This document shows, piece by piece, positions 3,776 through 38,244 of a stretch of 64,000 nucleotides of DNA. The DNA lies in the IMG/VR virus record IMGVR_UViG_3300046740_000358, positions 11,173 to 75,172 of that record; one strand, given 5' to 3'. A model generated the notes under the pieces. The model did no database searches. It was not told the origin of the DNA and saw nothing but the letters and a program-made list of their open reading frames with translations. Position 1 is the stretch's first letter; each line of letters opens with the position of its first letter. This DNA comes from a virus. Both the position numbers and the translations under genes were made by a program.

Positions 3776-4272
3776 GGCGCCTTCCGTGCGGCGTCTAGGG
3801 CCGCGAGGATGGTTGCCGCCGCCCGCTCGCCCTTGTTATCCGCTGGGCTGTGGCCGGAGCCGTACTCTCGGAGTTCTCCGAGCGTCAGACGCAGCGCCGC
3901 CTCCATCTCAGGCGCCAGCCGGATCATCTCGCGGGCGAGGGGAGATGCCAGTTCAATCCAGGAAGCGTCGTTGGTAAGTGTCAAGACGTCCGCACAGTTG
4001 GCGTCTTCCAACCCCCAGGCCATGCCGTACTCTCGCCACCGCCACGGCGCGGGGTGCTCGCCTGTGCCGGCGCGCGACGCGACCTGCGCCGGATGCTCGG
4101 TCGGATGCGATCCGGCGCCCGCGATGCCCTCGGACGCGACGTAAGTCTGGTTGCCGCCCACTCCCCCCACTGACACGACGAACGCCTGTGGGGCATGGCC
4201 AGCAACGATGGTCGCCTCGTCATGTGGTCGTTTGACGGCCTCGCCGCCCTCGTGCTTCTCTTCGTCTGACAT
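3772..4272 (-). CDS. hypothetical protein, paralogue of 51323..51694
   Basis: AGGAG RBS before MSDEEK; shares HPAPW, LEDAN, LASPLA.E.IRLAPEMEAALR and TILAALDAAR with the paralogue. Confidence 0.7.
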   Translation of the reverse strand: MSDEEKHEGGEAVKRPHDEATIVAGHAPQAFVVSVGGVGGNQTYVASEGIAGAGSHPTEHPAQVASRAGTGEHPAPWRWREYGMAWGLEDANCADVLTLTNDASWIELASPLAREMIRLAPEMEAALRLTLGELREYGSGHSPADNKGERAAATILAALDAARKAP

Positions 4273-30516: not shown

Positions 30517-32170
30517 GGCGGGTTACCATGACGTCCATGGCCACATTCTGGGATCGGGTGTTCCGCCGCCAACCTACAGCCGACGCGAGCTCCCTGGCTC
30601 CCCGGGCCCCCAGTGACGCGATGCTGGCCGCCATCGGGCGCGACAGCGCAGTGGCAGCGACGGCGCCGAGCCGCCCTGGCGTGTGGGACGGGATCCAGAA
30701 CTGGGCCGCCGGCATCGGTGCCGGTCCCGACAAGCGCCTCGGGAATGCGTTCAACCCGATCGCGTTCCTGACCAGGCAGGAGTGCGAGGCGTACTACAAC
30801 GGCGACTGGGTGATGGCCGCCGCGGTGGACAAGCCCGTGGAGGACATGACCAGGAACTGGCCGACCCTCGTGTGGCCGGGCAAGGACAAGGACGAAGCGG
30901 CAACCAGCGCGCTCGCGGACGTAGAGGACGAACTGCAGATCCGCGAGCACGTCGTCGAGGCCATGACCTGGGGGCGACAGTTTGGCGGCGCCGCCCTGAT
31001 CCTCATCATCTCGGGTGAGGATGACTGGTCGCTCCCGATCGGGTACAAGCGCGGCGCCATCGTCGCCCCCGGGACGCAGCCCAACTATGACGCGATCGGC
31101 GTTGGGGATCTCGACCTCGTCTACCCGGTAGACCGCCACCGCCTTGCCCCCACCGGCATGGCCGACAACGCGCGCCGCGATCCCAGGACGGGCAAGTCCA
31201 ACCAGAACTTCGGGCAGCCGCTGGCCTACAGCTTCACGGACGAGGCGGGCATCAGCGAGTACAACGTCCACTGGTCGCGGGTGATCCGCTTCCACGGCAA
31301 GCGCCTGTCCCGATACGACTGGTGGCGGAACGGCCGCTGGCACGCGAGCGTGTTCCAGAAGATTCAGACCGACGTGATGGACTATGCCGCCTCCCGCGCT
31401 TCGACGGCGACGCTGGGCCTCGAGCAGGCGGTGGACATCCTGAACATCCCGGGGCTCGCCGAGAAACTGTCGACGCCCCTGGGCCGCACGCAGGTGATGG
31501 ACCGCATCGCCTTCGGCGCGAACCTCAAGGGGCTCAACCGCGTCTGGCTGCTGGACGGCGGCAACAAGACCGTCAACCGTGACCCCGAGATGTACTCCCA
31601 GAAAAAGGTCGACTACAGCGGGTCGGCAGCGGCGTTGGAAAGTTGGATGTACATCATCAGCGGCGCGACGGGCGTGCCGGTCACGCGGCTATTCGGGCGC
31701 TCCCCGGGCGGGCTGAACAGCACCGGGGACAGCGACATGAAAAACTACCGCGAGCAATGCGCGAACGGGCAACAGACCGACATGCGCCCCGCGCTGCTGC
31801 GCCTGTACGAGGTGGTGATTCGCAGCGCCATCGGCTACATGCCCGACGACCTCAAGATCGTGTTCCCCCCGATCGACGATCCCAGCCGCTCGGAGGCGGC
31901 CGAGATCTTGGCGAAGGAAGCGACGGCCTACAAAGCCTTCGTCGACATGGGGATGCCCCTCGGGATCGTCATGCGGGAGTTGAAGTCGAAGGGAACCTCG
32001 TTCACGACCCTCGAGGACGCCGACGTCTCGGCCGCAGCGGACCTCGACAAGCAGGACGCGGAGCTCGCCAAGGCGGGCGCGAAGGCGCAGGCGGCGGCGT
32101 TCAAGAAGGGCGAGGTACCGGGGGCGCCCGGCAAGACGAGGCCGGCGCCGGCGGAGTAGGGTCACCCGGC
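30517..32170. repeat. imperfect inverted repeats GGCGGGTTACC (30517-30527) / GGTCACCCGGC (32160-32170) abutting portal ATG and TAG
   Basis: 9/11 match, read directly. Confidence 0.6.
30528..32159 (+). CDS. portal protein (DUF1073 family), inverted relative to its operon
   Basis: AVDKPVEDMTRNW, WGRQFGGA, VHWSRVIRF and IPV/VPVTRLFGRSPGGLNSTGDSDMKNY. Confidence 0.92.
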   Translation: MTSMATFWDRVFRRQPTADASSLAPRAPSDAMLAAIGRDSAVAATAPSRPGVWDGIQNWAAGIGAGPDKRLGNAFNPIAFLTRQECEAYYNGDWVMAAAVDKPVEDMTRNWPTLVWPGKDKDEAATSALADVEDELQIREHVVEAMTWGRQFGGAALILIISGEDDWSLPIGYKRGAIVAPGTQPNYDAIGVGDLDLVYPVDRHRLAPTGMADNARRDPRTGKSNQNFGQPLAYSFTDEAGISEYNVHWSRVIRFHGKRLSRYDWWRNGRWHASVFQKIQTDVMDYAASRASTATLGLEQAVDILNIPGLAEKLSTPLGRTQVMDRIAFGANLKGLNRVWLLDGGNKTVNRDPEMYSQKKVDYSGSAAALESWMYIISGATGVPVTRLFGRSPGGLNSTGDSDMKNYREQCANGQQTDMRPALLRLYEVVIRSAIGYMPDDLKIVFPPIDDPSRSEAAEILAKEATAYKAFVDMGMPLGIVMRELKSKGTSFTTLEDADVSAAADLDKQDAELAKAGAKAQAAAFKKGEVPGAPGKTRPAPAE

Positions 32171-33601
32171 GTTCGGTCCGAAGGCGTCGAAGATGGACGA
32201 GGGCCCCTTCGCGATGTTCCAGCCGTTCGACATGGCATCCACCTGGTCGTCGTGGGCGTCGCCAACGCCCGTGAACTTCGAGCACTCGTCCAAGAACTTC
32301 CCCAGCCATTTCGGGGCGTCCTTCAGTTCGAAGGCGGGCACCAGCAGCCGACCGATGTTCCAAGCTGCGGCGGCCGGCTGGGCGCGGGTGAACTTGTCGC
32401 CGATAGGGACCACCTCGACGATCCGCTCGACGCCAAGTTCTCGGAGCATCTGCGGGATCGCCAGGAACGCCCCCACGCACTCTACCCCGATGGGGGTCTG
32501 CCCCCACTCCTCCTGGATGGCCAGCAGGTCACGCACGAACGCTGGGATCGTCTTCTGCTCGCGGTAGACGTAGCGAACGTAACCGATGATGTAGCGGCGG
32601 CCGTCGTCTTCGACGACATCCCGGATCGACATGACCACCACCGCGCTGTAGTCGGCCGATGTCCTTTGGCTGGCAGCGGGGTCGGACATCAGGATGAGAC
32701 GACACCCCTCGAAAGACGTTGTCGCAGGATCGTAGTAGTGCGCCTCTCCGAATACGGATCCGCCGCGTGGGCGGGGGGCGCCCTGGTAAAGGGAGGCGAA
32801 CGCGAACTCTCCGAGATCTTCCTCTCGTTCCTCGAGCTTCTTGAGCGGGTAGAGTTCGGGCCACAGCGCTTCGCCGGGCTGACGGTTGAGTGGATCGTCC
32901 TTCTCGGCGATGGCCGACAAGTTGATCACCTTCCAGCCCTCGCGCTTGGAAAGGCGCCCGATCAGGTCGTCTTCATGCCAGCGGGTGTGGATGACGAACA
33001 CCGACGCGCCCTCGAGCCGGGTCAGCGCCACCGTCTTGAACCAGTCGTCTACTTTCTCACGGAATACCTCGCTGTAGGCGTCAACCGGGCCCTTGAATGG
33101 GTCGTCGACGACCAGCATGCCCTTTATGCGCTGGCCCGTGAGGCCCGATCCGATGCCGCCGGCAAGCAGGCCACCTCCCTGCGTGGTGCGCCACTCGCTC
33201 TTGTTGTCGGTTGACTTCGAGATCTTGATCCCAGCGCGCCCGGCGAGCTCGCGCGCCAGCACGCTTTTCGAATGCGCCTGCTGGGAGTTGTAGGAGAAGT
33301 AACCGTTCGGGTCGGACGGGTGCCGGGACAACCACCAAGCGATCGCGTTCACGAACAGCGTGGTCTTGGCGTGTCCCGGGGGAAGCGAGATCAGGACGCG
33401 GACGGGCTCGAGTTGCGCGCGCTCAAGTTCCGCGATGATGGGGTAGAGGTGCCGCGGCGCCGGGTGGTGCGGGGACATCCGCGCGATGAAGTCGCGAAGC
33501 GACTCCCCGCCGCTCATCCCCTCCAAGCATGTCAGAAGTTCGTTCTGCTCAGACTCAGAGAGGGTCGCCCACTCCTCAGGTGTCAGATCCGGAATGTCCA
33601 T
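32162..33601 (-). CDS. terL: terminase large subunit
   Basis: PPGHAKTT (Walker A variant), LVVDDP (Walker B), TRWHEDDL, YQGAP and HDDQVDA. Confidence 0.95.
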   Translation of the reverse strand: MDIPDLTPEEWATLSESEQNELLTCLEGMSGGESLRDFIARMSPHHPAPRHLYPIIAELERAQLEPVRVLISLPPGHAKTTLFVNAIAWWLSRHPSDPNGYFSYNSQQAHSKSVLARELAGRAGIKISKSTDNKSEWRTTQGGGLLAGGIGSGLTGQRIKGMLVVDDPFKGPVDAYSEVFREKVDDWFKTVALTRLEGASVFVIHTRWHEDDLIGRLSKREGWKVINLSAIAEKDDPLNRQPGEALWPELYPLKKLEEREEDLGEFAFASLYQGAPRPRGGSVFGEAHYYDPATTSFEGCRLILMSDPAASQRTSADYSAVVVMSIRDVVEDDGRRYIIGYVRYVYREQKTIPAFVRDLLAIQEEWGQTPIGVECVGAFLAIPQMLRELGVERIVEVVPIGDKFTRAQPAAAAWNIGRLLVPAFELKDAPKWLGKFLDECSKFTGVGDAHDDQVDAMSNGWNIAKGPSSIFDAFGPNAG

Positions 33602-34040
33602 CCGGCTTCTTTGTTCGAGCCTTGGCCCGTGCGATCAGTTCTGCCGCGCGGTCGCGCTTCTCCGCGGAACTCATCATCTGCACTTGGGCGATGGACAGGG
33701 GCGCTCCGTCCGGGCCAGCGACTTCGATCTTGCGAGGACCCGTGACGTCCATCGTCTCGAAGACCATCTCGATCGACGGCTCGCGGCCGAGGAGAGCGTT
33801 CTTGTACAGCGACGCCATCACGTTCTCGACACGGGGGACCTTGCGCGATCCGCTCTTGTCGGTGATGTCCTGAGCATCTGCAGCGAAGTAGTCCTGGACC
33901 TTTTGGCGCCAGTTCACGCCGGTCTTTCCGAGTGGGTTGAGCACCTGGCCTGGCTTGATGGGCCGTAGATTGGCGATCCGCCGCTCACGGGCCTCCGGCG
34001 TCTCCGTCCTCTTGCGCCGCGTCTTGGGTTGCCGTGCCAT
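33576..34040 (-). CDS. terS: terminase small subunit
   Basis: GGAGG RBS; NLRPIKPGQVLNPLG and KIEVAGPDGAPL; directly upstream of terL. Confidence 0.75.
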   Translation of the reverse strand: MARQPKTRRKRTETPEARERRIANLRPIKPGQVLNPLGKTGVNWRQKVQDYFAADAQDITDKSGSRKVPRVENVMASLYKNALLGREPSIEMVFETMDVTGPRKIEVAGPDGAPLSIAQVQMMSSAEKRDRAAELIARAKARTKKPDGHSGSDT

Positions 34041-34130
34041 CGTTTCGGTGTCTCCTCCCGCCCATGATACCCTGAGACCTTGACACCCCGTCAATCTGAC
34101 CGGGGGAACCTCACGTGAAGGAGCGCAACC

Positions 34131-34241
34131 ATGGCGACGAAGAAGGCGAAGAAGACCGGGGCGAAGGGCAAGAACGGAAAGACGGGCGGCGGCAAGGGCG
34201 GCAAGCGTGCCGCGGGTGGTGGCGGCAAGGGCGGGGGCTAG
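34131..34241 (+). CDS. 36-aa Lys/Gly peptide ending GKGGG (not in ORF track)
   Basis: AAGGAG RBS at 34118-34123; MATKKAKKTGAKGKNGKTGGGKGGKRAAGGGGKGGG*. Confidence 0.75.
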   Translation: MATKKAKKTGAKGKNGKTGGGKGGKRAAGGGGKGGG

Positions 34242-34252
34242 ATAACCCTGGA

Positions 34253-34282
34253 GCCTCCCTCCTTTTGATTCAGGAGGGGGGC
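34253..34282 (+). terminator. hairpin between the two peptide genes
   Basis: GCCTCCCTCCT-loop-AGGAGGGGGGC, 11-bp stem with one G-U pair. Confidence 0.5.
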
Positions 34283-34296
34283 ACCCGAGGCACGCC

Positions 34297-34485
34297 ATGC
34301 CAACGAAATCCGGGATGCCCACGGCTGCTGAAAATAGGGCCGGGAACGAGTTCTTCAGAAAGAACGCGCTGAACAACGCCAAAATGCGCGCGCGGTACGC
34401 GGCCCGGAAGGCAGCAGCCGGAAAAGGCCGGGGCGCCAAGGGCGCGAAGCGCTCTGGCAAGTCCGCAGGCAAGGGTGGGGGCTGA
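34297..34485 (+). CDS. 62-aa basic peptide ending GKGGG
   Basis: GAGG RBS; ...GKGRGAKGAKRSGKSAGKGGG*; stop abuts the next gene's GTG. Confidence 0.75.
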   Translation: MPTKSGMPTAAENRAGNEFFRKNALNNAKMRARYAARKAAAGKGRGAKGAKRSGKSAGKGGG

Positions 34486-35160
34486 GTGAGTCAGCTTTCA
34501 GAATCGCTCGCGGTCCTCACGAGGGGCCGCGAGCTTTCTGATTCTGTCCTGGTCGCCTACTCGGGTGGCAAGGACTCGATGGTCGTGCTCGACATGTGCG
34601 TGAACACCTTCAAGCGCGTCGAGGCGTTCATGATGGAGTTCGTTCCCGGGATGCCCATGAATGACGAGCGCTGCGCCTACGCCAAGTCGCGCTGGGGCGT
34701 CACCGTCCGCCGCGGCTACCCGGATCCCTCGGGCGTCGCCGCCCTCGAGGAGGGCATCTTCTGCGACTACCCAAAGAAGAAAGGGAAGCCGCTCCACTAC
34801 CGTCAGGTCCACGAGCTCGCCCGGCGTGACAGCGGCGTCACCCTGGTAGCCACCGGCCACAAGCGCAGCGATTCCATGGGCAGACGGGCCGAGTTGCTTC
34901 GCGTCGAGAAAGACCCCCTGCGCCTGACCCCCCTCGCCGCCTGGAACAAGGCCGACGTGCTGGGCTACCTGAAGGCCAAGAACATCCCCCTCCCCCGTGA
35001 CGAGGGGCGCAACAGCAACGCGATCGGCCTGGGGGACAAGTTCCTCCTGTGGGCCTACGACCACAGCCGGCCCGACTTCGACCGGATCGCCTCCGTCTTC
35101 CTGTACGCCCCCGCATTGATCTGGCGCCGGACGTTCTACCCCGAGACTGCTGAGGACTGA
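34486..35160 (+). CDS. PP-loop (PAPS-reductase-fold) adenine-nucleotide alpha-hydrolase
   Basis: VAYSGGKDS, TGHKRSDS and PLAAWNKADV; lacks the C-terminal ECGLH of true PAPS reductases. Confidence 0.85.
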   Translation: MSQLSESLAVLTRGRELSDSVLVAYSGGKDSMVVLDMCVNTFKRVEAFMMEFVPGMPMNDERCAYAKSRWGVTVRRGYPDPSGVAALEEGIFCDYPKKKGKPLHYRQVHELARRDSGVTLVATGHKRSDSMGRRAELLRVEKDPLRLTPLAAWNKADVLGYLKAKNIPLPRDEGRNSNAIGLGDKFLLWAYDHSRPDFDRIASVFLYAPALIWRRTFYPETAED

Positions 35161-35165
35161 CCACC

Positions 35166-35916
35166 ATGGCCAAGGCACCGCGCGAGCCGACGACGTCGAA
35201 GGCGCCCAAACCTCCCAAGGCGGCGGAGCCCGTCCCCCACCTCACGAACGAGACCTTCAAGATGGAGGTCGTCCCTCGGACGAAGATCAAGCCAGCTCCG
35301 TACAACCCGCGGTCCATCACCAGCGAGGCCAAGCGCAAGTTGGGGGCTGTGATCGACTCCCTCGGGATGCTGATGCCCTTGGTCTGGAACAAGCGCTCCG
35401 GCAACCTGGTCAGCGGGCACCAGCGGCTCAACAAGCTCGGACAAGACCATGGGGTACCCGTCGAAACAGAAGGACTACACGTTGACGGTGGCGGTGGTCG
35501 ACCTGGACGACGCCCACGAGCGGGCCGCCAACGCCGCGATCAACAACGCGGCCGCGCAGGGCGACTTCGACATGGAGGCGCTCGAGAACATGCTCCGCTT
35601 CCCCGGGGTCTCCGAGAACATCGAGGCCACCGGGTGGGACCAAGCCGACGTGATGCGGCTATTCGGGTCGATGGACACGTCCAGCAGCGACGCGGCCAAG
35701 GAAGCGCAGGCGGCTGCTGACGCTGCCCGAGCGCACGCCGAGAAGTACGACGCCGAGATGCAGGCCGCCCACCAGAAGAGTTCCGACGACTTCTTCATGG
35801 TCGTCATCTTCAAGGACTCGGACGCCCGGACCGCCTTCGCCACGAAGCACGGCCTCGACGACAACCGCTACCAGTCCGCGGCGGCCTTCGAAGCGCTGAT
35901 CGCCGGCGACGACTGA
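35166..35916 (+). pseudogene. ParB/Srx-domain protein interrupted by a 1-nt frameshift at about 35439
   Basis: PAPYNPR..PLVWNKRSGNLVSGHQRL continues as KLDKTMGY..TVAVVDLD..ANAAINN..GDFD if one G is removed (751-1=750 nt). Confidence 0.75.
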
Positions 35917-36068
35917 TCCGGGGCCCACGCCAGCACCGCCGCTCGGATCGCCGCGCTGACCGTCAGGCCGGCCACCGATGCCTTGCGCTTCAGGCCCTCG
36001 AGTTCGGACGGCGACAGCCGCACCCGGACGGGTGGGATCTCGGTCCGCTTGTGGTTGGTCCTGCCCAT
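35868..36068 (-). CDS. MobC/RHH-like DNA-binding protein
   Basis: VRVRLSPSELEGLKRKASVAGLTVSAAIRAAV; GGAGG RBS. Confidence 0.65.
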   Translation of the reverse strand: MGRTNHKRTEIPPVRVRLSPSELEGLKRKASVAGLTVSAAIRAAVLAWAPDQSSPAISASKAAADW

Positions 36069-36091
36069 GTGCCGTTTTCCCGCCTCCCGCT

Positions 36092-36107
36092 TTGTGTGGC
36101 CACACAA
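36092..36107. promoter_or_regulatory. perfect 16-bp palindrome TTGTGTGGCCACACAA, operator candidate in divergent intergenic region
   Basis: Read directly; adjacent to the + strand promoter TTGCGA-N17-CACGTT (36117-36145). Confidence 0.55.
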
Positions 36108-36151: not shown

Positions 36152-36313
36152 ATGAACCTCGTAACCGTCTCGGGCCTCGTGATGCTGGTCGGTGGGCTCC
36201 TCTACTTGCTCCCGGGGGCCCCCGCTCCTGAGCGCCTGGGCCGGCTGTCGACCATGGGGCTGGTCATGTTCGGGGTGGGGTTGTTCTCGCTGCTCGTCCG
36301 CGCTTGGCGCTGA
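36152..36313 (+). CDS. 53-aa two-TM membrane protein, leaderless
   Basis: Two hydrophobic helices; ATG lies 6 nt after the -10 box. Confidence 0.6.
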   Translation: MNLVTVSGLVMLVGGLLYLLPGAPAPERLGRLSTMGLVMFGVGLFSLLVRAWR

Positions 36314-36638
36314 CGCCGTTCGCCCGGCACATCGCCTCGACGCTCGGGTAGAGCGCGTGCCCCCCGTCGCTCACCACCTCCAGCGCGGCGGCCGCCTCCC
36401 CGTCCGTGAGCACCTTCATCCGCAGGGCGATCGACGGCAGCCCGCGCGCCCTCTGGTCCAGCAGCCATCCCGCGCAGAACCCGCGCTCGGCGTCGGGCAA
36501 CCCGCCTTGCTTGTGGCAAGCGTAGGTGGCTACGATCTGGTCGGCCTCGGTCTCCAGCAGGCGTTCGAATTCCTCCCGGTCCCACAACTTCCTCGGCGCG
36601 TCCTTGCGGTACGGGCAGTTCTCACAGGGGGTCTTCAT
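36264..36638 (-). CDS. DUF6283-like Cys/His protein
   Basis: PCENCPYRKD..W..EEF..L..ACHK..CAGWL. Confidence 0.65.
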   Translation of the reverse strand: MKTPCENCPYRKDAPRKLWDREEFERLLETEADQIVATYACHKQGGLPDAERGFCAGWLLDQRARGLPSIALRMKVLTDGEAAAALEVVSDGGHALYPSVEAMCRANGVSAKRGRAARTTPPRT

Positions 36639-36646
36639 GTGGGCTC

Positions 36647-37033
36647 TCACGGTGCGGGCTCCACGTAGGGCTCGTCGAAGTCGAGCCAAGTATCAGCGCC
36701 TGCCGCAATGCTGACCACCCCGATACCGTGGGCCGCGCAGAAGGCATCAGCCGCTTGCAGGATGGCCGACCGTCTCTCCTGCGCTCTGTAGCCGTATCGG
36801 TAGCCTGCCTCGGCCGCCATCAGCACCAAGTCGATGGTGTTGGTTTCCCGGTCCGTGGTCCAGCAGCGCCGGCACAGCCGAGGGCGTTCGGTCACCCGGA
36901 TCGGGATGCCGCACGCCCTGCAGGTCCCGTTCGGCGTGTTCGCCTTCACCTCGGCCCACGCCAAGCGCTCGTCCTTCAGCTTGGCGCGCGCGGCCGCCCT
37001 CTCCTGGCAGTGGGGGCACTTGGGGCAACTCAT
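36647..37033 (-). CDS. Zn-finger hypothetical protein
   Basis: CPKCPHC, CRACG and LCRRC. Confidence 0.55.
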   Translation of the reverse strand: MSCPKCPHCQERAAARAKLKDERLAWAEVKANTPNGTCRACGIPIRVTERPRLCRRCWTTDRETNTIDLVLMAAEAGYRYGYRAQERRSAILQAADAFCAAHGIGVVSIAAGADTWLDFDEPYVEPAP

Positions 37034-37036
37034 GGC

Positions 37037-37786
37037 TCAGAACCGATCCGGCTCGAGGGCAGCGGGCTCCGCCTCGCCCGGCGATTGCTCCCCGGGCAAG
37101 TCCGGCATGCTCGGGTCCACCTCCCGCACCAGCGCCGCGATCCCCTTGGTGACCGCCTCGTCAGCCCCGGCCGACTGGGCCAGCGTCTGCGCGATCCTCG
37201 TCACGCAGTAGGCGTTCGCGTGGTACCCCCGGCGTGTGAACTTCAGCAGGCGCAGCATGGTGCCGCCGGCGGTGTTGCCGGCAGGCGCCATGAAGCGCAG
37301 CCGCTTGGCCGCCATGTCGACGTAGAAGCGCGGGTCGCAGACCGAGAGCCACTGCCCTGCGGCGGCGTCGCACCAGATGGCGGCGCGCGCGATCGTGAAG
37401 TCGAACGATTCGATCAACTTCCTCGGGTCGTCGAACGTCCACTTCGTGATGAACTGGATCATCAGTTCGCCGCGGGCGGTGAGGGAGATCGCGTTGTCGG
37501 TCTCGGTCCGTCGGTACTCGATAGGCCGCGCCTCGTCCTCGAGCGCGGTGCACACCAGCTTTCCAGCCATCACGGTGGCGGCGACCTCATTCGCGCAGAA
37601 CACGTCGACGTCGGAGGGCTTCTCGTTCGCGATCACCGTGCGGATGAACCCGCCGGCCACCACCAGCGGGGTGGTGCGGTTCTTGTCGGTCATCATCCAG
37701 CGCAACTTCGACGGCAGGCGGCGCGCGATGCGCTCCACGTCGTCGGGGTCAAGTTCGGTCGTTTCCATCGTCGCCCTTTCGCTCAT
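37037..37786 (-). CDS. nucleotidyltransferase (CCA/poly(A) polymerase head-like)
   Basis: VVAGGFIR..PSDVDVF, FDFTI and RLLKFTRRGY. Confidence 0.75.
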   Translation of the reverse strand: MSERATMETTELDPDDVERIARRLPSKLRWMMTDKNRTTPLVVAGGFIRTVIANEKPSDVDVFCANEVAATVMAGKLVCTALEDEARPIEYRRTETDNAISLTARGELMIQFITKWTFDDPRKLIESFDFTIARAAIWCDAAAGQWLSVCDPRFYVDMAAKRLRFMAPAGNTAGGTMLRLLKFTRRGYHANAYCVTRIAQTLAQSAGADEAVTKGIAALVREVDPSMPDLPGEQSPGEAEPAALEPDRF

Positions 37787-38244
37787 GGTCCCTCGATCTC
37801 CCCTCGGTACGTCCACAGCCCGAGCTGCCCGCGGACTGGAATCGGCGTCTTGAACAGCCGGGGTTTGGCCAACTCCCAAGCGAACCGGCCTAGCGTGAAG
37901 TCTCCCCACCCGAGGTGGTCTGTCCACTTGATGGCGCCGGCGGGTCGGCAGGCCACGAGGTCGACCGCGCCGAGGATGCAGCCCAGTCCCAGGGATTCGT
38001 TCTCGGTGAGTTCGCGGAACCTGCGCGCCAGCGCCGAGTCGTTTGTCCCCGTGTCTATCGCGGCGAACGGCGCGCCGTTGCGGACGCCATTCCGGATGAC
38101 CGAGAAGTCCACCGCCTTCCCCGCGTGGATCAGCAGCGGGCCGCGGTACTTCGTTGGCCAGGACCGCGTCTCGAAGCGCTTCAGCCCGGCGAAGATGGCG
38201 GCCACGTGGGGTTGCTTGATCGTGATGGTCTTGTGTTCGGTCAT
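37783..38244 (-). CDS. ASCH domain protein
   Basis: TIKQPHVAAIFAGLKRFETRSWPTKYRGPLLIHAG...PIPVRGQLGLW. Confidence 0.9.
   Translation of the reverse strand: MTEHKTITIKQPHVAAIFAGLKRFETRSWPTKYRGPLLIHAGKAVDFSVIRNGVRNGAPFAAIDTGTNDSALARRFRELTENESLGLGCILGAVDLVACRPAGAIKWTDHLGWGDFTLGRFAWELAKPRLFKTPIPVRGQLGLWTYRGEIEGP

What the first reader, a model, noticed from the sequence alone, without database searches (positions are those of the whole stretch)
34118..35916. Two GKGGG-tailed basic peptides + PP-loop enzyme + ParB/Srx: candidate peptide-conjugation system beside the terminase
Seen: a + strand operon divergent from terS. It begins with two RBS-bearing Lys/Gly-rich peptides (36 aa, missed by the ORF track, and 62 aa) that differ elsewhere but both end in GKGGG-stop, separated by a hairpin. 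Next comes an abutting SGGKDS PP-loop protein lacking the ECGLH redox tail and CC/CxxC cluster of PAPS/APS reductases, then a ParB/Srx protein. Known: PP-loop enzymes activate substrates by adenylation; C-terminal Gly-Gly is the activated end of ubiquitin/ThiS/MoaD; PAPS-reductase-like + ParB pairs exist (IbrA/IbrB). Inference: the enzyme adenylates the C-terminal Gly and ligates these protamine-like peptides to DNA, to a protein or to each other's Lys. This would be an E1-independent tag without a beta-grasp fold, perhaps shielding or condensing packaged DNA.
Basis: partly seen in the sequence, partly recalled or inferred. Interest (0 to 1): 0.9.

Follow-up and report, generated by a model that had tools for sequence, protein, structure and literature searches.

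The report
Glycine-tailed peptides with phage PP-loop/ParB module
A soil phage encodes two tiny, very basic proteins that both end in the same glycine tail, next to an ATP-activating 'PP-loop' enzyme and a ParB-like DNA-binding protein. This set recurs in hundreds of phage lineages, including three cultured phages, and nobody has measured what it does.

Summary
ORFs 34131..34241 (36 aa) and 34297..34485 (62 aa) both end GKGGG-stop. Each has a ribosome-binding site and gene-like GC3. A non-redox PP-loop protein (34486..35160) and a ParB-like gene follow.

In 35 non-redundant homologous loci (GC 40-70%), a rule blind to glycine picks an upstream basic ORF ending in G in 24 (control 7.8%) and in GG in 16 (control 0.6%). 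Glycine codons vary at the third base. The tail persists where no start codon follows, so it is not just a Shine-Dalgarno by-product. ParB-like follows the enzyme in nearly all family loci that reach far enough downstream. An ASCH-domain gene is a neighbour in about half.

The module occurs in cultured phages: Lactobacillus LR1 and JNU_P7, and Bacteroides BS-TP2. The enzyme family has about 500 clusters at 50% identity.

The chemistry is untested. C-terminal glycine adenylation and transfer, probably onto phage DNA, is the best guess. The co-fold gave no answer, and 9-10 of 35 loci have basic peptides without a glycine end.

This scan already met the module on at least eight other DNAs. I found no paper describing the peptide partner.

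The parts
34041..34130 (.). Divergent intergenic region between terS (- strand) and the peptide operon (+ strand). It contains AAGGAG (34118..34123), the RBS of peptide A.
   Evidence: No sigma-70 consensus was found.
34131..34241 (+). Peptide A: 36 aa, Lys/Gly-rich, no acidic residue, ends GKGGG-stop.
   Evidence: (GC3 0.89). No start codon lies within 55 nt downstream, so this tail is not an SD element.
34253..34282 (+). RNA hairpin between the two peptide genes: 11-bp stem, 8-nt loop, no U-tract.
   Evidence: z = -2.6. Not conserved in other twin-peptide loci.
34297..34485 (+). Peptide B: 62 aa, basic, ends GKGGG-stop. Its stop codon abuts the GTG start of the enzyme gene.
   Evidence: GC3 0.76; one glycine codon is GGT where peptide A has GGC.
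34486..35160 (+). Stand-alone PP-loop ATP pyrophosphatase of the PAPS-reductase superfamily: 224 aa, SGGKDS, GxKRSDSxxRR, no redox Cys tail, no Fe-S cysteines.
   Evidence: (pLDDT 92).
35166..35447 (+). ParB/Srx-like protein, N-terminal part (APYNPR, WN.R.GN.V.GHQRL). The frame then runs on out of register to 35720.
   Evidence: (phrog_9353 positions 8-67; phrog_620).
35443..35449 (+). Site of the 1-nt (+1) frame break in the ParB-like gene (GAC C ATG).
   Evidence: homologues read straight through; identical in a Logan contig of the only holder run, possibly the source sample, depth about 38.
35449..35916 (+). ParB-like protein, C-terminal part. It starts at its own ATG and includes the conserved DF(Y/F)xVVxF...RY end domain.
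   Evidence: (phrog_9353 positions 76-228).
37783..38244 (-). ASCH-domain gene. It is a recurrent neighbour of the module elsewhere. Here it lies 1.9 kb beyond ParB.
   Evidence: also for the cultured phages.
33576..34040 (-). Small terminase-like gene (weak DUF5681 match), divergent from the module.
   Evidence: E = 7e-4, below cut-off. BS-TP2 has a DUF5681 gene in the TerS position after ParB.
32162..33601 (-). Large terminase.
   Evidence: phrog_38, E = 3e-79.

Best explanation
The region is one instance of a widespread phage module with up to four parts:
- one or two ribosomally made, disordered, polycationic micro-proteins whose last ~7 residues are small (G/S/A/T) and usually end in Gly;
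- a stand-alone PP-loop ATP pyrophosphatase;
- a ParB/Srx-fold protein;
- often an ASCH (PUA-like) protein.

The most likely working model has four steps, all of them inferred:
1. The basic body of the peptide and the ParB-like protein bring the system to phage DNA around the time of packaging.
2. The PP-loop enzyme uses ATP to adenylate a carboxylate, most probably the free alpha-carboxylate at the end of the thin glycine tail.
3. The activated peptide is passed to an amine acceptor, most plausibly an exocyclic amine of a DNA base.
4. ASCH acts as reader or trimmer of the product.

Shown here: the parts are real genes, and they are linked over long evolutionary distances. Selection acts on the glycine residues rather than on the nucleotides. 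The enzyme keeps the ATP-binding PP-loop but lacks every feature of sulfate reduction.

Inferred only: which group is adenylated, what the acceptor is, and what ASCH does. In this phage the ParB-like gene carries a frameshift, so the module may be impaired or may run on two ParB pieces.
For: **The genes are real.** Both small ORFs have an RBS and gene-like GC3. The twin tail motif is unique in the window.

**The link is conserved.**
- 24/35 non-redundant loci have an upstream basic ORF ending in G, against 7.8% in 4342 control picks (p = 5e-19).
- 16/35 end in GG, against 0.6% (p = 3e-27).
- The Gly tail is present in both deep clades of the enzyme tree.
- Outgroup PP-loop loci show no consistent Gly-ended basic ORF: 4 of 15 have a doubtful one, in a search span of about 1,150 nt.

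**Selection is on the protein.** Third bases of 122 tail glycine codons are C 57, T 32, A 19, G 14, and paralogous tails differ synonymously. The tail is also found when the gap to the next start exceeds 25 nt (6/12 by the blind rule; peptide A here).

**Tails match within a phage.** Twin peptides in one phage share their tail while their bodies do not align: the window, L005, L055, L058, L060 and JNU_P7.

**The partners point to DNA.**
- ParB-like follows the enzyme in nearly all family loci that reach far enough downstream.
- A homologue folds like the CDP-bound ParB N-domain (6sdk, rmsd 3.4 A over 142 columns).
- It matches the ParB part of phage methyltransferase fusions.
- ASCH is adjacent in 20 loci. 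ParB-ASCH and ParB-PUA fusions are on record (PMC12704722).

**Chemical precedents.**
- PP-loop folds that adenylate carboxylates are the top structural matches (LarE, Z 15.7; also NAD synthetase and QueC).
- The TtuA-TtuB entry 5gha pairs a PP-loop enzyme with a sulfur carrier.
- Mom moves activated glycine onto N6 of adenine in DNA (PMC13219725).
- ASCH proteins hydrolyse N4-acylcytidine (PMC6972931).
Against: - There is no direct evidence on the chemistry.
- About 9-10 of 35 loci have a basic peptide that ends in K (4), Q (2), H or V, or show no clear candidate. Terminal glycine is therefore frequent but not obligatory.
- The peptides have no detectable sequence relatives. Their conservation rests on composition, position and tail.
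- The structure search cannot tell a carboxylate-activating PP-loop enzyme from a base-activating or phosphate-activating one: LarE, GMP synthetase, FAD synthase, APS reductase, TilS and TtuA all score Z 13-16.
- Within PF01507 the known substrates are sulfate or phosphate groups rather than carboxylates (own knowledge).
- The ParB-like gene is frameshifted here, and the 75-kb genome has no second ParB_N.
- ASCH lies 1.9 kb away on the other strand in this phage.
Confidence: 0.45

Rival explanations
1. The micro-proteins are free-standing polycations, like protamine or histone H1, that bind or condense phage DNA or help packaging. They are only co-transcribed with the PP-loop/ParB pair. The glycine end is a floppy terminus with no chemistry, and the enzyme works on something else.
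For: - The peptides have 20-40% K+R and almost no acidic residues, and some carry AKKK/PKKK repeats like H1 tails (L014, L016).
- The module sits next to the terminase genes.
- A quarter of the loci lack the Gly end.
Against: - A purely electrostatic role does not explain why the very last residue is Gly in 24/35 loci (control 7.8%).
- It does not explain why twin peptides in one phage keep the same tail while their bodies diverge.
- It does not explain why the gene stays glued to this one enzyme clade across very divergent phages (identity to the window 25-45%; tree branches often above 0.5 changes per site).
Confidence: 0.25
2. Reverse polarity, as in TilS, GMP synthetase or Cap9. The enzyme adenylates a carbonyl or carboxyl group on a base or nucleotide, and an amine of the peptide (Lys side chain or N-terminus) attacks. 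The result is a lysidine-like DNA-peptide link. The glycine tail only docks the peptide.
For: - TilS with ATP and lysine is among the top fold matches (2e89).
- Most PP-loop enzymes that act on nucleic acids activate a base carbonyl (own knowledge).
- QueC-family Cap9 and QatC conjugate to a protein amine.
- The peptides are Lys-rich.
Against: - The conserved feature is the C-terminal end. No conserved Lys position or N-terminal Gly exists: the peptides start MATKK and MPTKS.
- QueC (PF06508) scores only E = 0.08, below its cut-off.
Confidence: 0.1
3. Sulfur chemistry. The Gly tail carries a thiocarboxylate, as in TtuB, ThiS or MoaD, and feeds sulfur to a DndC/BrxP/TtuA-like PP-loop enzyme that thiolates DNA, on the backbone or on a base.
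For: - Foldseek's top hits are TtuA, including its complex with the sulfur carrier TtuB (5gha). LarE is the top VIA-align match.
- BrxP is the best PADLOC hit (E = 9e-7, PP-loop stretch only).
- DndB-DndC is a ParB-like plus PAPS-reductase-like pair (PMC10853773).
- BrxP systems make phosphorothioate (abstract of PMC12914056).
Against: - The enzyme has no Fe-S cysteine triad or DndC cysteine dyad. Only Cys38 is near-invariant.
- The phage genome has no ThiF-type E1 and no cysteine desulfurase.
- The peptides are far too short and low in complexity for a beta-grasp fold.
Confidence: 0.07
4. The small ORFs or their tails are by-products: G-rich Shine-Dalgarno sequences for the next gene, regulatory leader ORFs, or chance ORFs of GC-rich DNA.
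For: The tail of peptide B (GGT GGG GGC TGA) lies just before the GTG of the enzyme gene and can serve as its SD.
Against: - Peptide A has the same tail with no start within 55 nt.
- Tails persist at gaps above 25 nt, and also in AT-rich phages where the Gly-ended proteins lie downstream of the enzyme (JNU_P7 and LR1).
- G is the least used third base in tail glycine codons.
- GC3 and RBS fit real genes.
- Composition-matched controls give 7.8% G ends.
Confidence: 0.03

Closest known systems
Phage and prophage gene pairs annotated 'PAPS reductase family protein' plus 'ParB-like nuclease' before the terminase (Lactobacillus phages LR1 and JNU_P7, Bacteroides phage BS-TP2); more distantly IbrA/IbrB (YbdN/YbdM)
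   Same: - The enzyme clade is the same (24-30% identity over 69-95% of the protein).
- The order is the same: PP-loop, ParB-like, TerS, TerL.
- These cultured phages also carry Gly-ended basic proteins next to the enzyme.
   Different: - In the records I read, the small proteins are annotated only as hypothetical. I found no paper describing a function for the pair or a peptide partner.
- IbrA-type proteins are about twice as long: phrog_424 has 460 positions, and only positions 160-324 match.
- In this window the module is divergent from terS and the ParB gene is split.
TtuA-TtuB (and Ncs6-Urm1): a PP-loop enzyme that works with a sulfur-carrier protein ending in Gly-Gly
   Same: - A PP-loop enzyme is paired with a separately encoded protein whose C-terminal Gly-Gly is the reactive end.
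- It is the top Foldseek match (5b4f, 5gha; E about 1e-8).
   Different: - TtuB is a beta-grasp protein activated by an E1-like enzyme, and TtuA needs an Fe-S cluster.
- Here the partner is a 36-62 aa polycation, the enzyme has no cluster cysteines, and the phage genome has no E1.
- VIA-align gives Z 12.9, no better than many other PP-loop enzymes.
QueC-family Cap9-CdnD (type IV CBASS deazaguanylation) and QatC-QatB
   Same: A PP-loop enzyme conjugates at a flexible, glycine-bearing protein terminus. Cap9 is a structural neighbour (9nto, Z 13.0).
   Different: - Those systems use the N-terminal amine of the partner and a 7-deazaguanine carboxylate.
- They are host defence systems.
- Here the conserved glycine is at the C-terminus, the enzyme belongs to PF01507 rather than QueC, and the genes are phage genes.
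DndB-DndC, BrxP and DpdB-DpdA: ParB-like NTPases working with DNA-modifying enzymes
   Same: A ParB-fold protein is paired with a DNA-modification enzyme. DndC and BrxP are PAPS-reductase-like PP-loop proteins.
   Different: There is no cysteine desulfurase, no DndD/E, and no cluster cysteines. Those systems have no small Gly-tailed peptide on record.
Mom of phage Mu (Gly-tRNA-dependent glycylation of N6-adenine in DNA)
   Same: A phage enzyme moves a carboxyl-activated glycine onto a DNA base amine to escape restriction. This is the nearest precedent for the proposed acceptor chemistry.
   Different: Mom is a GNAT enzyme that uses charged tRNA and a single glycine. It is not a PP-loop enzyme and does not use a ribosomal peptide.
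Ubiquitin-like and Pup tagging
   Same: - The tag has a flexible tail that ends in Gly-Gly, sometimes with 1-2 extra residues. Here that is GGGGQ, GAGQ and GGGGGSH in L055, L014 and L024.
- A basic residue often lies shortly before the glycines.
   Different: There is no beta-grasp fold and no E1/E2 or PafA/Dop. The activating enzyme would belong to a different superfamily.

Membership tests
PP-loop ATP pyrophosphatase / PAPS_reduct superfamily (PF01507) | SGGxDS PP-loop motif at the N-terminus | tested here: met
   SGGKDS at residues 26-31, near-invariant in 29 homologues.
PP-loop ATP pyrophosphatase / PAPS_reduct superfamily (PF01507) | Profile score above Pfam's gathering cut-off | tested here: met
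   44.5 bits against a cut-off of 22.5, E = 2e-11.
PP-loop ATP pyrophosphatase / PAPS_reduct superfamily (PF01507) | Adenine-nucleotide alpha-hydrolase fold | tested here: met
   Model pLDDT 92.4. LarE Z 15.7, FAD synthase PAPS domain Z 14.5, APS reductase Z 14.0.
PAPS/APS reductase proper (CysH) | C-terminal ECGLH catalytic cysteine; for APS reductase, the CC...CxxC Fe-S cysteines | tested here: not met
   The protein ends ...FYPETAED. There is no conserved C-terminal Cys, and only Cys38 is near-invariant. NCBIfam CysH/APS models score 17-35 bits against cut-offs of 154-553.
ParB/Srx superfamily | ParB N-domain fold with the G-x-x-R (Box II) region | tested here: met
   The intact homologue from L004 (43% identical to the window's N part) matches ParB-CDP 6sdk at E = 1.6e-6, rmsd 3.4 A over 142 columns, and also sulfiredoxin. 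GGHQR is near-invariant. PHROG ParB-like families match at E = 4e-12.
ParB/Srx superfamily | Match to Pfam ParB_N (PF02195) | tested here: inconclusive
   No Pfam hit for the window's pieces or for intact homologues. The family is too diverged for that profile.
ParB/Srx superfamily | Intact reading frame in this phage | tested here: not met
   +1 frame break at about 35447. The Logan contig is identical.
Ubiquitin-like / ThiS / MoaD / TtuB carriers | C-terminal Gly-Gly | tested here: met
   Both peptides end GKGGG. 16/35 loci end in GG.
Ubiquitin-like / ThiS / MoaD / TtuB carriers | Beta-grasp fold of about 65-100 residues | tested here: not met
   The peptides have 36 and 62 residues of Lys/Gly/Ala-rich low-complexity sequence. 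They have no sequence relatives.
Ubiquitin-like / ThiS / MoaD / TtuB carriers | E1-like (ThiF/MoeB) adenylating enzyme | tested here: not met
   PF00899 is absent from the 75-kb phage genome, while the control rings in 14/14 genomes. A host enzyme cannot be excluded.
DndC / BrxP DNA phosphorothioation | Cysteine desulfurase partner and cluster or dyad cysteines | tested here: not met
   PF00266 is absent from the genome. No conserved Cys set. BrxP matches only over the PP-loop (residues 15-40).
QueC family (Cap9/QatC) | QueC profile match and a partner with an N-terminal glycine motif | tested here: not met
   PF06508 scores E = 0.08, 12.8 bits against a cut-off of 22. The peptides start MATKK and MPTKS.
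IbrA/IbrB | IbrA-type length with a C-terminal extension beyond the PP-loop domain | tested here: not met
   224 aa. Only positions 160-324 of the 460-position phrog_424 match. All 150 best relatives are stand-alone proteins of 159-311 aa, mostly 220-250.
Gly-tailed peptide + PP-loop + ParB phage module (this scan's own working class) | Small basic ORF with a small-residue tail ending in Gly beside the enzyme, with ParB-like directly after it | tested here: met
   The module is near the terminase genes. ASCH lies within 2 kb.

The most novel reading that the evidence does not exclude
A PP-loop enzyme acts as an E1-independent activator of the C-terminal glycine of ribosomally made polycationic peptides. 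It attaches them covalently to exocyclic amines of phage DNA bases (N-acyl C or A), guided by a ParB-fold NTPase, and an ASCH protein reads or trims the adduct. This would be a peptide-type DNA hypermodification made at packaging time, and a new class of peptide tagging.
Probability: 0.17. Interest if true: 0.95.

Novelty: new variant of a known kind. Interest (0 to 1): 0.7.

Why it matters
Gene pairs labelled 'PAPS reductase' plus 'ParB-like nuclease' appear in many phage genomes, and no function is known for them. Showing that they come with a dedicated Gly-tailed micro-protein, and often with an ASCH protein, turns a vague annotation into a testable system.

If the tail is activated by the PP-loop enzyme, this would be peptide tagging without an E1 or a beta-grasp fold. 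It might also be the first ribosomal peptide used as a DNA modification. That would bear on restriction and defence evasion, on packaging, and on tools for DNA-peptide conjugation.

The module is present in genetically workable phages: prophage LR1 of Lactobacillus reuteri ATCC PTA 6475, L. gasseri phage JNU_P7, and Bacteroides phage BS-TP2. The question can therefore be settled at the bench.

Tried and rejected
The closest relative (P0002, 65% identity) and most of the roughly 500 clusters could not be seen in context. I used viral and metagenome loci instead.
- **Complex prediction** (enzyme alignment + 62-aa peptide + ATP + Mg) returned 'no answer', score 0.00. This is no evidence either way.
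- **Peptide sequence searches:** the 62-aa peptide found nothing in the 5.8-billion-protein search. BLASTP of the two peptides against each other gave no alignment.
- **Fusion search:** a search for longer, fused forms of the enzyme gave only two distant proteins. N-terminal extensions in eight relatives are not peptide fusions.
- **Promoters and terminators:** no sigma-70 promoter was found between terS and peptide A. The two terminator-like hits are at chance level and lie inside genes.
- **RNA evidence:** no RNA holder is listed for the region. The only run is a DNA run kept as contigs that may be the source sample, so expression could not be examined.
- **Genome contigs** gave only two distant relatives.
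- **Pfam and NCBIfam** gave nothing for the ParB-like protein.
- **Leader peptides:** I considered and rejected the idea that the small ORFs are leader peptides. In the Lactobacillus phages they lie downstream of the enzyme and are 123-141 aa long.
- I reran it from references.
Full report
**What is in the window.** The window is bases 11173-75172 of a 75,172-bp virus record with direct terminal repeats. The only public run that holds the stretch is labelled a soil metagenome.

Between the small terminase-like gene (33576..34040, - strand) and a ribbon-helix-helix gene (35868..36107, - strand) lies a + strand operon:
- AAGGAG at 34118..34123, 7 nt before the first ATG.
- A 36-aa ORF, 34131..34241.
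- An 11-bp hairpin, 34253..34282.
- GAGG, then a 62-aa ORF, 34297..34485.
- Directly after its TGA, a GTG-started 224-aa PP-loop gene, 34486..35160.
- A ParB-like gene, 35166..35916.

Both small ORFs end GKGGG-stop. That codon pattern occurs only at these two places in 64 kb, with none expected. Their in-frame GC3 (0.89 and 0.76) matches the neighbouring genes (0.77-0.91) and exceeds the other two frames (0.57-0.69). The two tails differ at one synonymous base, GGC against GGT. Outside the tail the two peptides do not align. The hairpin is real (z = -2.6) but has no U-tract. It is not a conserved part of the module, because twin peptides elsewhere are only 12-27 nt apart.

**The enzyme.** It matches PF01507 above the cut-off. 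It carries SGGKDS and a GxKRSDSxxRR motif, and it models with pLDDT 92. It has no C-terminal ECGLH and no Fe-S cysteines. It scores far below every NCBIfam cut-off for CysH, APS reductase, CysD, TilS and LarE.

Structure search places it among PP-loop enzymes in general: LarE Z 15.7, GMP synthetase 14.8, FAD synthase 14.6, APS reductase 14.0, CysD, QueC, TilS, NAD synthetase, Cap9 13.0 and TtuA 12.9. So the fold says 'ATP-dependent adenylation' but does not name the substrate.

The database gene call (P0001, 193 aa) starts at Met32 and cuts off the PP-loop. Homologues show that the GTG start is right. The family is large: 502 clusters at 50% identity score E <= 1e-30, and 1180 score E <= 1e-10. 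All 150 best are stand-alone proteins of 159-311 aa, mostly 220-250.

**The ParB-like gene.** PHROG profiles match the N piece (positions 8-67 of phrog_9353) and the C piece (positions 76-228) in two different frames. In 20 intact homologues aligned the gene is a single ORF of about 235-300 aa. The window's pieces together cover the whole family, with all conserved residues intact. The break lies between ...GHQRLNKLGQD and GYPSKQKDYTLTV, and one extra base (GAC C ATG) accounts for it.

A Logan contig of the only holder run, which may be the window's own source sample, is identical at depth about 38. A one-off assembly slip is therefore unlikely. The genome holds no other ParB_N.

The intact homologue from L004 folds like the CDP-bound ParB N-domain. 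It also matches the ParB part of phage ParB-methyltransferase fusions. ParB-like genes are split in L003 and in the cultured phage JNU_P7 as well, at a different place.

I aligned 29 enzyme homologues and fetched 69 loci from viral and metagenome contigs. I then picked the candidate by a rule that ignores glycine: the most basic + strand ORF of 20-130 aa whose stop lies within -12 to +150 nt of the enzyme start.

| Measure | 35 non-redundant loci | 4342 control picks (random anchors, both strands, same loci) | p |
|---|---|---|---|
| Ends in G | 24 | 7.8% | 5e-19 |
| Ends in GG | 16 | 0.6% | 3e-27 |
| At least 3 G in the last 5 | 21 | 0.6% | 8e-39 |

In 28 Gly-ended peptides, the last seven residues are small (G/S/A/T) in 20-28 cases per position. 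K/R is enriched at positions -8 to -10.

The peptide bodies are not conserved. Only closely related loci align, and there the substitutions and in-frame indels keep the frame and the tail (L035/L057, L030/L062, L004/L005).

On the enzyme tree the Gly tail is present in both deep clades. It needs at least three changes to other endings, with K tails arising at least twice. Outgroup PP-loop loci at or below 29% identity show no consistent Gly-ended basic ORF; 4 of 15 have a doubtful one in a search span of about 1,150 nt.

**Rival: the tail is only a ribosome-binding site.** Here that could hold for peptide B, whose tail lies just before the GTG. It cannot be the general cause, for four reasons:
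- Peptide A has the same tail 55 nt from the next start.
- By the blind rule, 6/12 peptides with a gap above 25 nt still end in G.
- G is the rarest third base in tail glycine codons (14 of 122), and paralogous tails differ synonymously.
- In the Lactobacillus phages the Gly-ended proteins lie downstream of the enzyme.

**Wider module.** ParB-like follows the enzyme in nearly all family loci that reach far enough downstream. An ASCH-domain gene (PF04266) lies either directly before the peptide or convergent right after ParB in 20 loci. In the window it is 37783..38244 on the - strand, 1.9 kb away.

The ASCH count used family-derived queries, so it is a lead and not a statistic. It does fit published fusions of the ParB fold to ASCH and to the PUA-like DUF3850 (PMC12704722). 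It also fits the known N4-acylcytidine amidohydrolase activity of ASCH proteins (PMC6972931 and a 2026 preprint on tRNA ac4C erasers).

Three cultured phages carry the module:

| Phage | Gene order |
|---|---|
| Bacteroides phage BS-TP2 | ASCH, 53-aa protein ending ...GSNG, PP-loop, ParB-like, DUF5681 TerS, TerL, portal |
| Lactobacillus phage JNU_P7 | ASCH, PP-loop, two proteins of 123 and 140 aa ending ...GSKGG and ...GSRGG, split ParB |
| Lactobacillus phage LR1 (L. reuteri ATCC PTA 6475) | PP-loop, 141-aa protein ending ...GKSSG, 'nuclease' (ParB position), TerS, TerL |

**How it most likely works.**

Shown:
- The genes are real.
- The peptide is linked to the enzyme and to ParB over long evolutionary distances.
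- Selection acts on the terminal glycines.
- The PP-loop is intact and the redox features are absent.
- The ParB fold is of the kind fused to DNA methyltransferases.

Inferred: a thin, flexible tail that ends in a free glycine carboxylate is what enzymes of several families thread into an adenylation site. Among PP-loop enzymes, several adenylate carboxylates (LarE, NAD synthetase, QueC; own knowledge). I therefore take C-terminal adenylation by the PP-loop enzyme as the most likely step.

DNA is the most likely target, given the ParB-like partner, the basic peptide body, ASCH, and expression beside the packaging genes. Mom of phage Mu shows that carboxyl-activated glycine can be put on N6 of adenine in DNA (PMC13219725).

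I rate the whole model at 0.45. The specific version, a peptide N-acylated onto DNA bases, gets about 0.17.

The main rival (0.25) is that the peptides are free DNA-binding polycations and are only co-expressed with the enzyme. The lesser rivals are reverse polarity of the TilS or Cap9 type (0.10), a thiocarboxylate sulfur relay (0.07), and by-product ORFs (0.03). The remainder is unassigned.

Points against the main model:
- Nine to ten of the 35 loci have other endings (K, Q, H, V) or no clear candidate.
- Within PF01507 the known substrates are sulfate or phosphate groups.
- The co-fold gave no answer (listed under Tried and rejected only).

**Comparison with what is known.** The nearest described things are the phage gene pairs annotated 'PAPS reductase' plus 'ParB-like nuclease', and IbrA/IbrB. 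None of these has a measured mechanism. I found no paper that mentions a Gly-tailed peptide partner. I ran nine full-text searches, one of which (IbrA/IbrB) returned only unrelated papers.

Analogous systems differ at defining features:
- TtuA-TtuB needs a beta-grasp carrier, an E1 and an Fe-S cluster.
- Cap9 and QatC use an N-terminal glycine and a QueC fold.
- DndB/C and BrxP need a desulfurase and cysteines.
- Pup and ubiquitin use other ligases.

**Earlier findings of this scan.** The same module was reported on at least eight other DNAs (e1-6008959, e1-5625679, e1-5982908, e1-5982918, e1-5752163, e1-5930958, e1-5982933, e1-5323960). Those notes reached the same general reading. I re-derived the statistics independently.

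- Codon-level and gap-stratified tests against the SD rival.
- The enzyme tree with tail labels.
- The ASCH link with support from the literature.
- Three cultured phages as test beds.
- The ParB frameshift.
- The absence of E1, desulfurase and a second ParB in the complete phage genome.

**Verdict.** The system is a new variant of a known but uncharacterised phage gene pair. Interest is 0.7.

Noticed in passing
window 35440-35455: The ParB-like gene is broken by a single extra base, and the C piece begins with its own ATG at the junction. ParB-like genes of the same module are also split in L003 (around 4000-4146) and in cultured Lactobacillus phage JNU_P7 (two annotated CDS). Those splits lie at a different place, near the end of the ParB N-domain. 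Repeated splitting may be tolerated or may have a function.
   Followed up: partly
window 30528-34040 compared with L003:1-2900: In L003 (the closest fetched locus), portal, terS, terL and the peptide-PP-loop-ParB module all lie on one strand. In the window, terS-terL lie on the opposite strand between portal and module. The two phages therefore differ by an inversion of the terS-terL block. The terL of L003 gave no tblastn match to the window's terL at E <= 1e-3, while terS and portal are homologous.
   Followed up: partly
window 34486-34581: Database gene calls for this enzyme (P0001, 193 aa) and its closest relative (P0002, 194 aa) start at an internal Met and cut off the SGGKDS PP-loop. 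The true start is the GTG that abuts the stop of the 62-aa ORF. The 62-aa ORF itself did not appear among the candidates of the large protein collection.
   Followed up: yes
window 36264-36689 (-) and 36647-37033 (-): Between the ParB-like gene and the ASCH gene lie a DUF6283 protein (E = 1.5e-24) and a 128-aa Cys-rich protein with no family match. Their relation to the module is unknown.
   Followed up: no
L055:57-455; L014:2530-2886; L024 (upstream of 365): Some module peptides carry one or two residues after the glycine run (GGGGQ twice, GAGQ, GGGGGSH). This recalls Pup-GGQ and ubiquitin-like precursors that need C-terminal processing.
   Followed up: no
L072:2468-3133 and L075:2435-3133: In the Lactobacillus phage clade the PP-loop motif reads SMGKDS instead of SGGKDS. 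The Gly-ended partner proteins there are larger (123-141 aa), with a region that looks folded. They may be better subjects for co-folding or crystallography.
   Followed up: no
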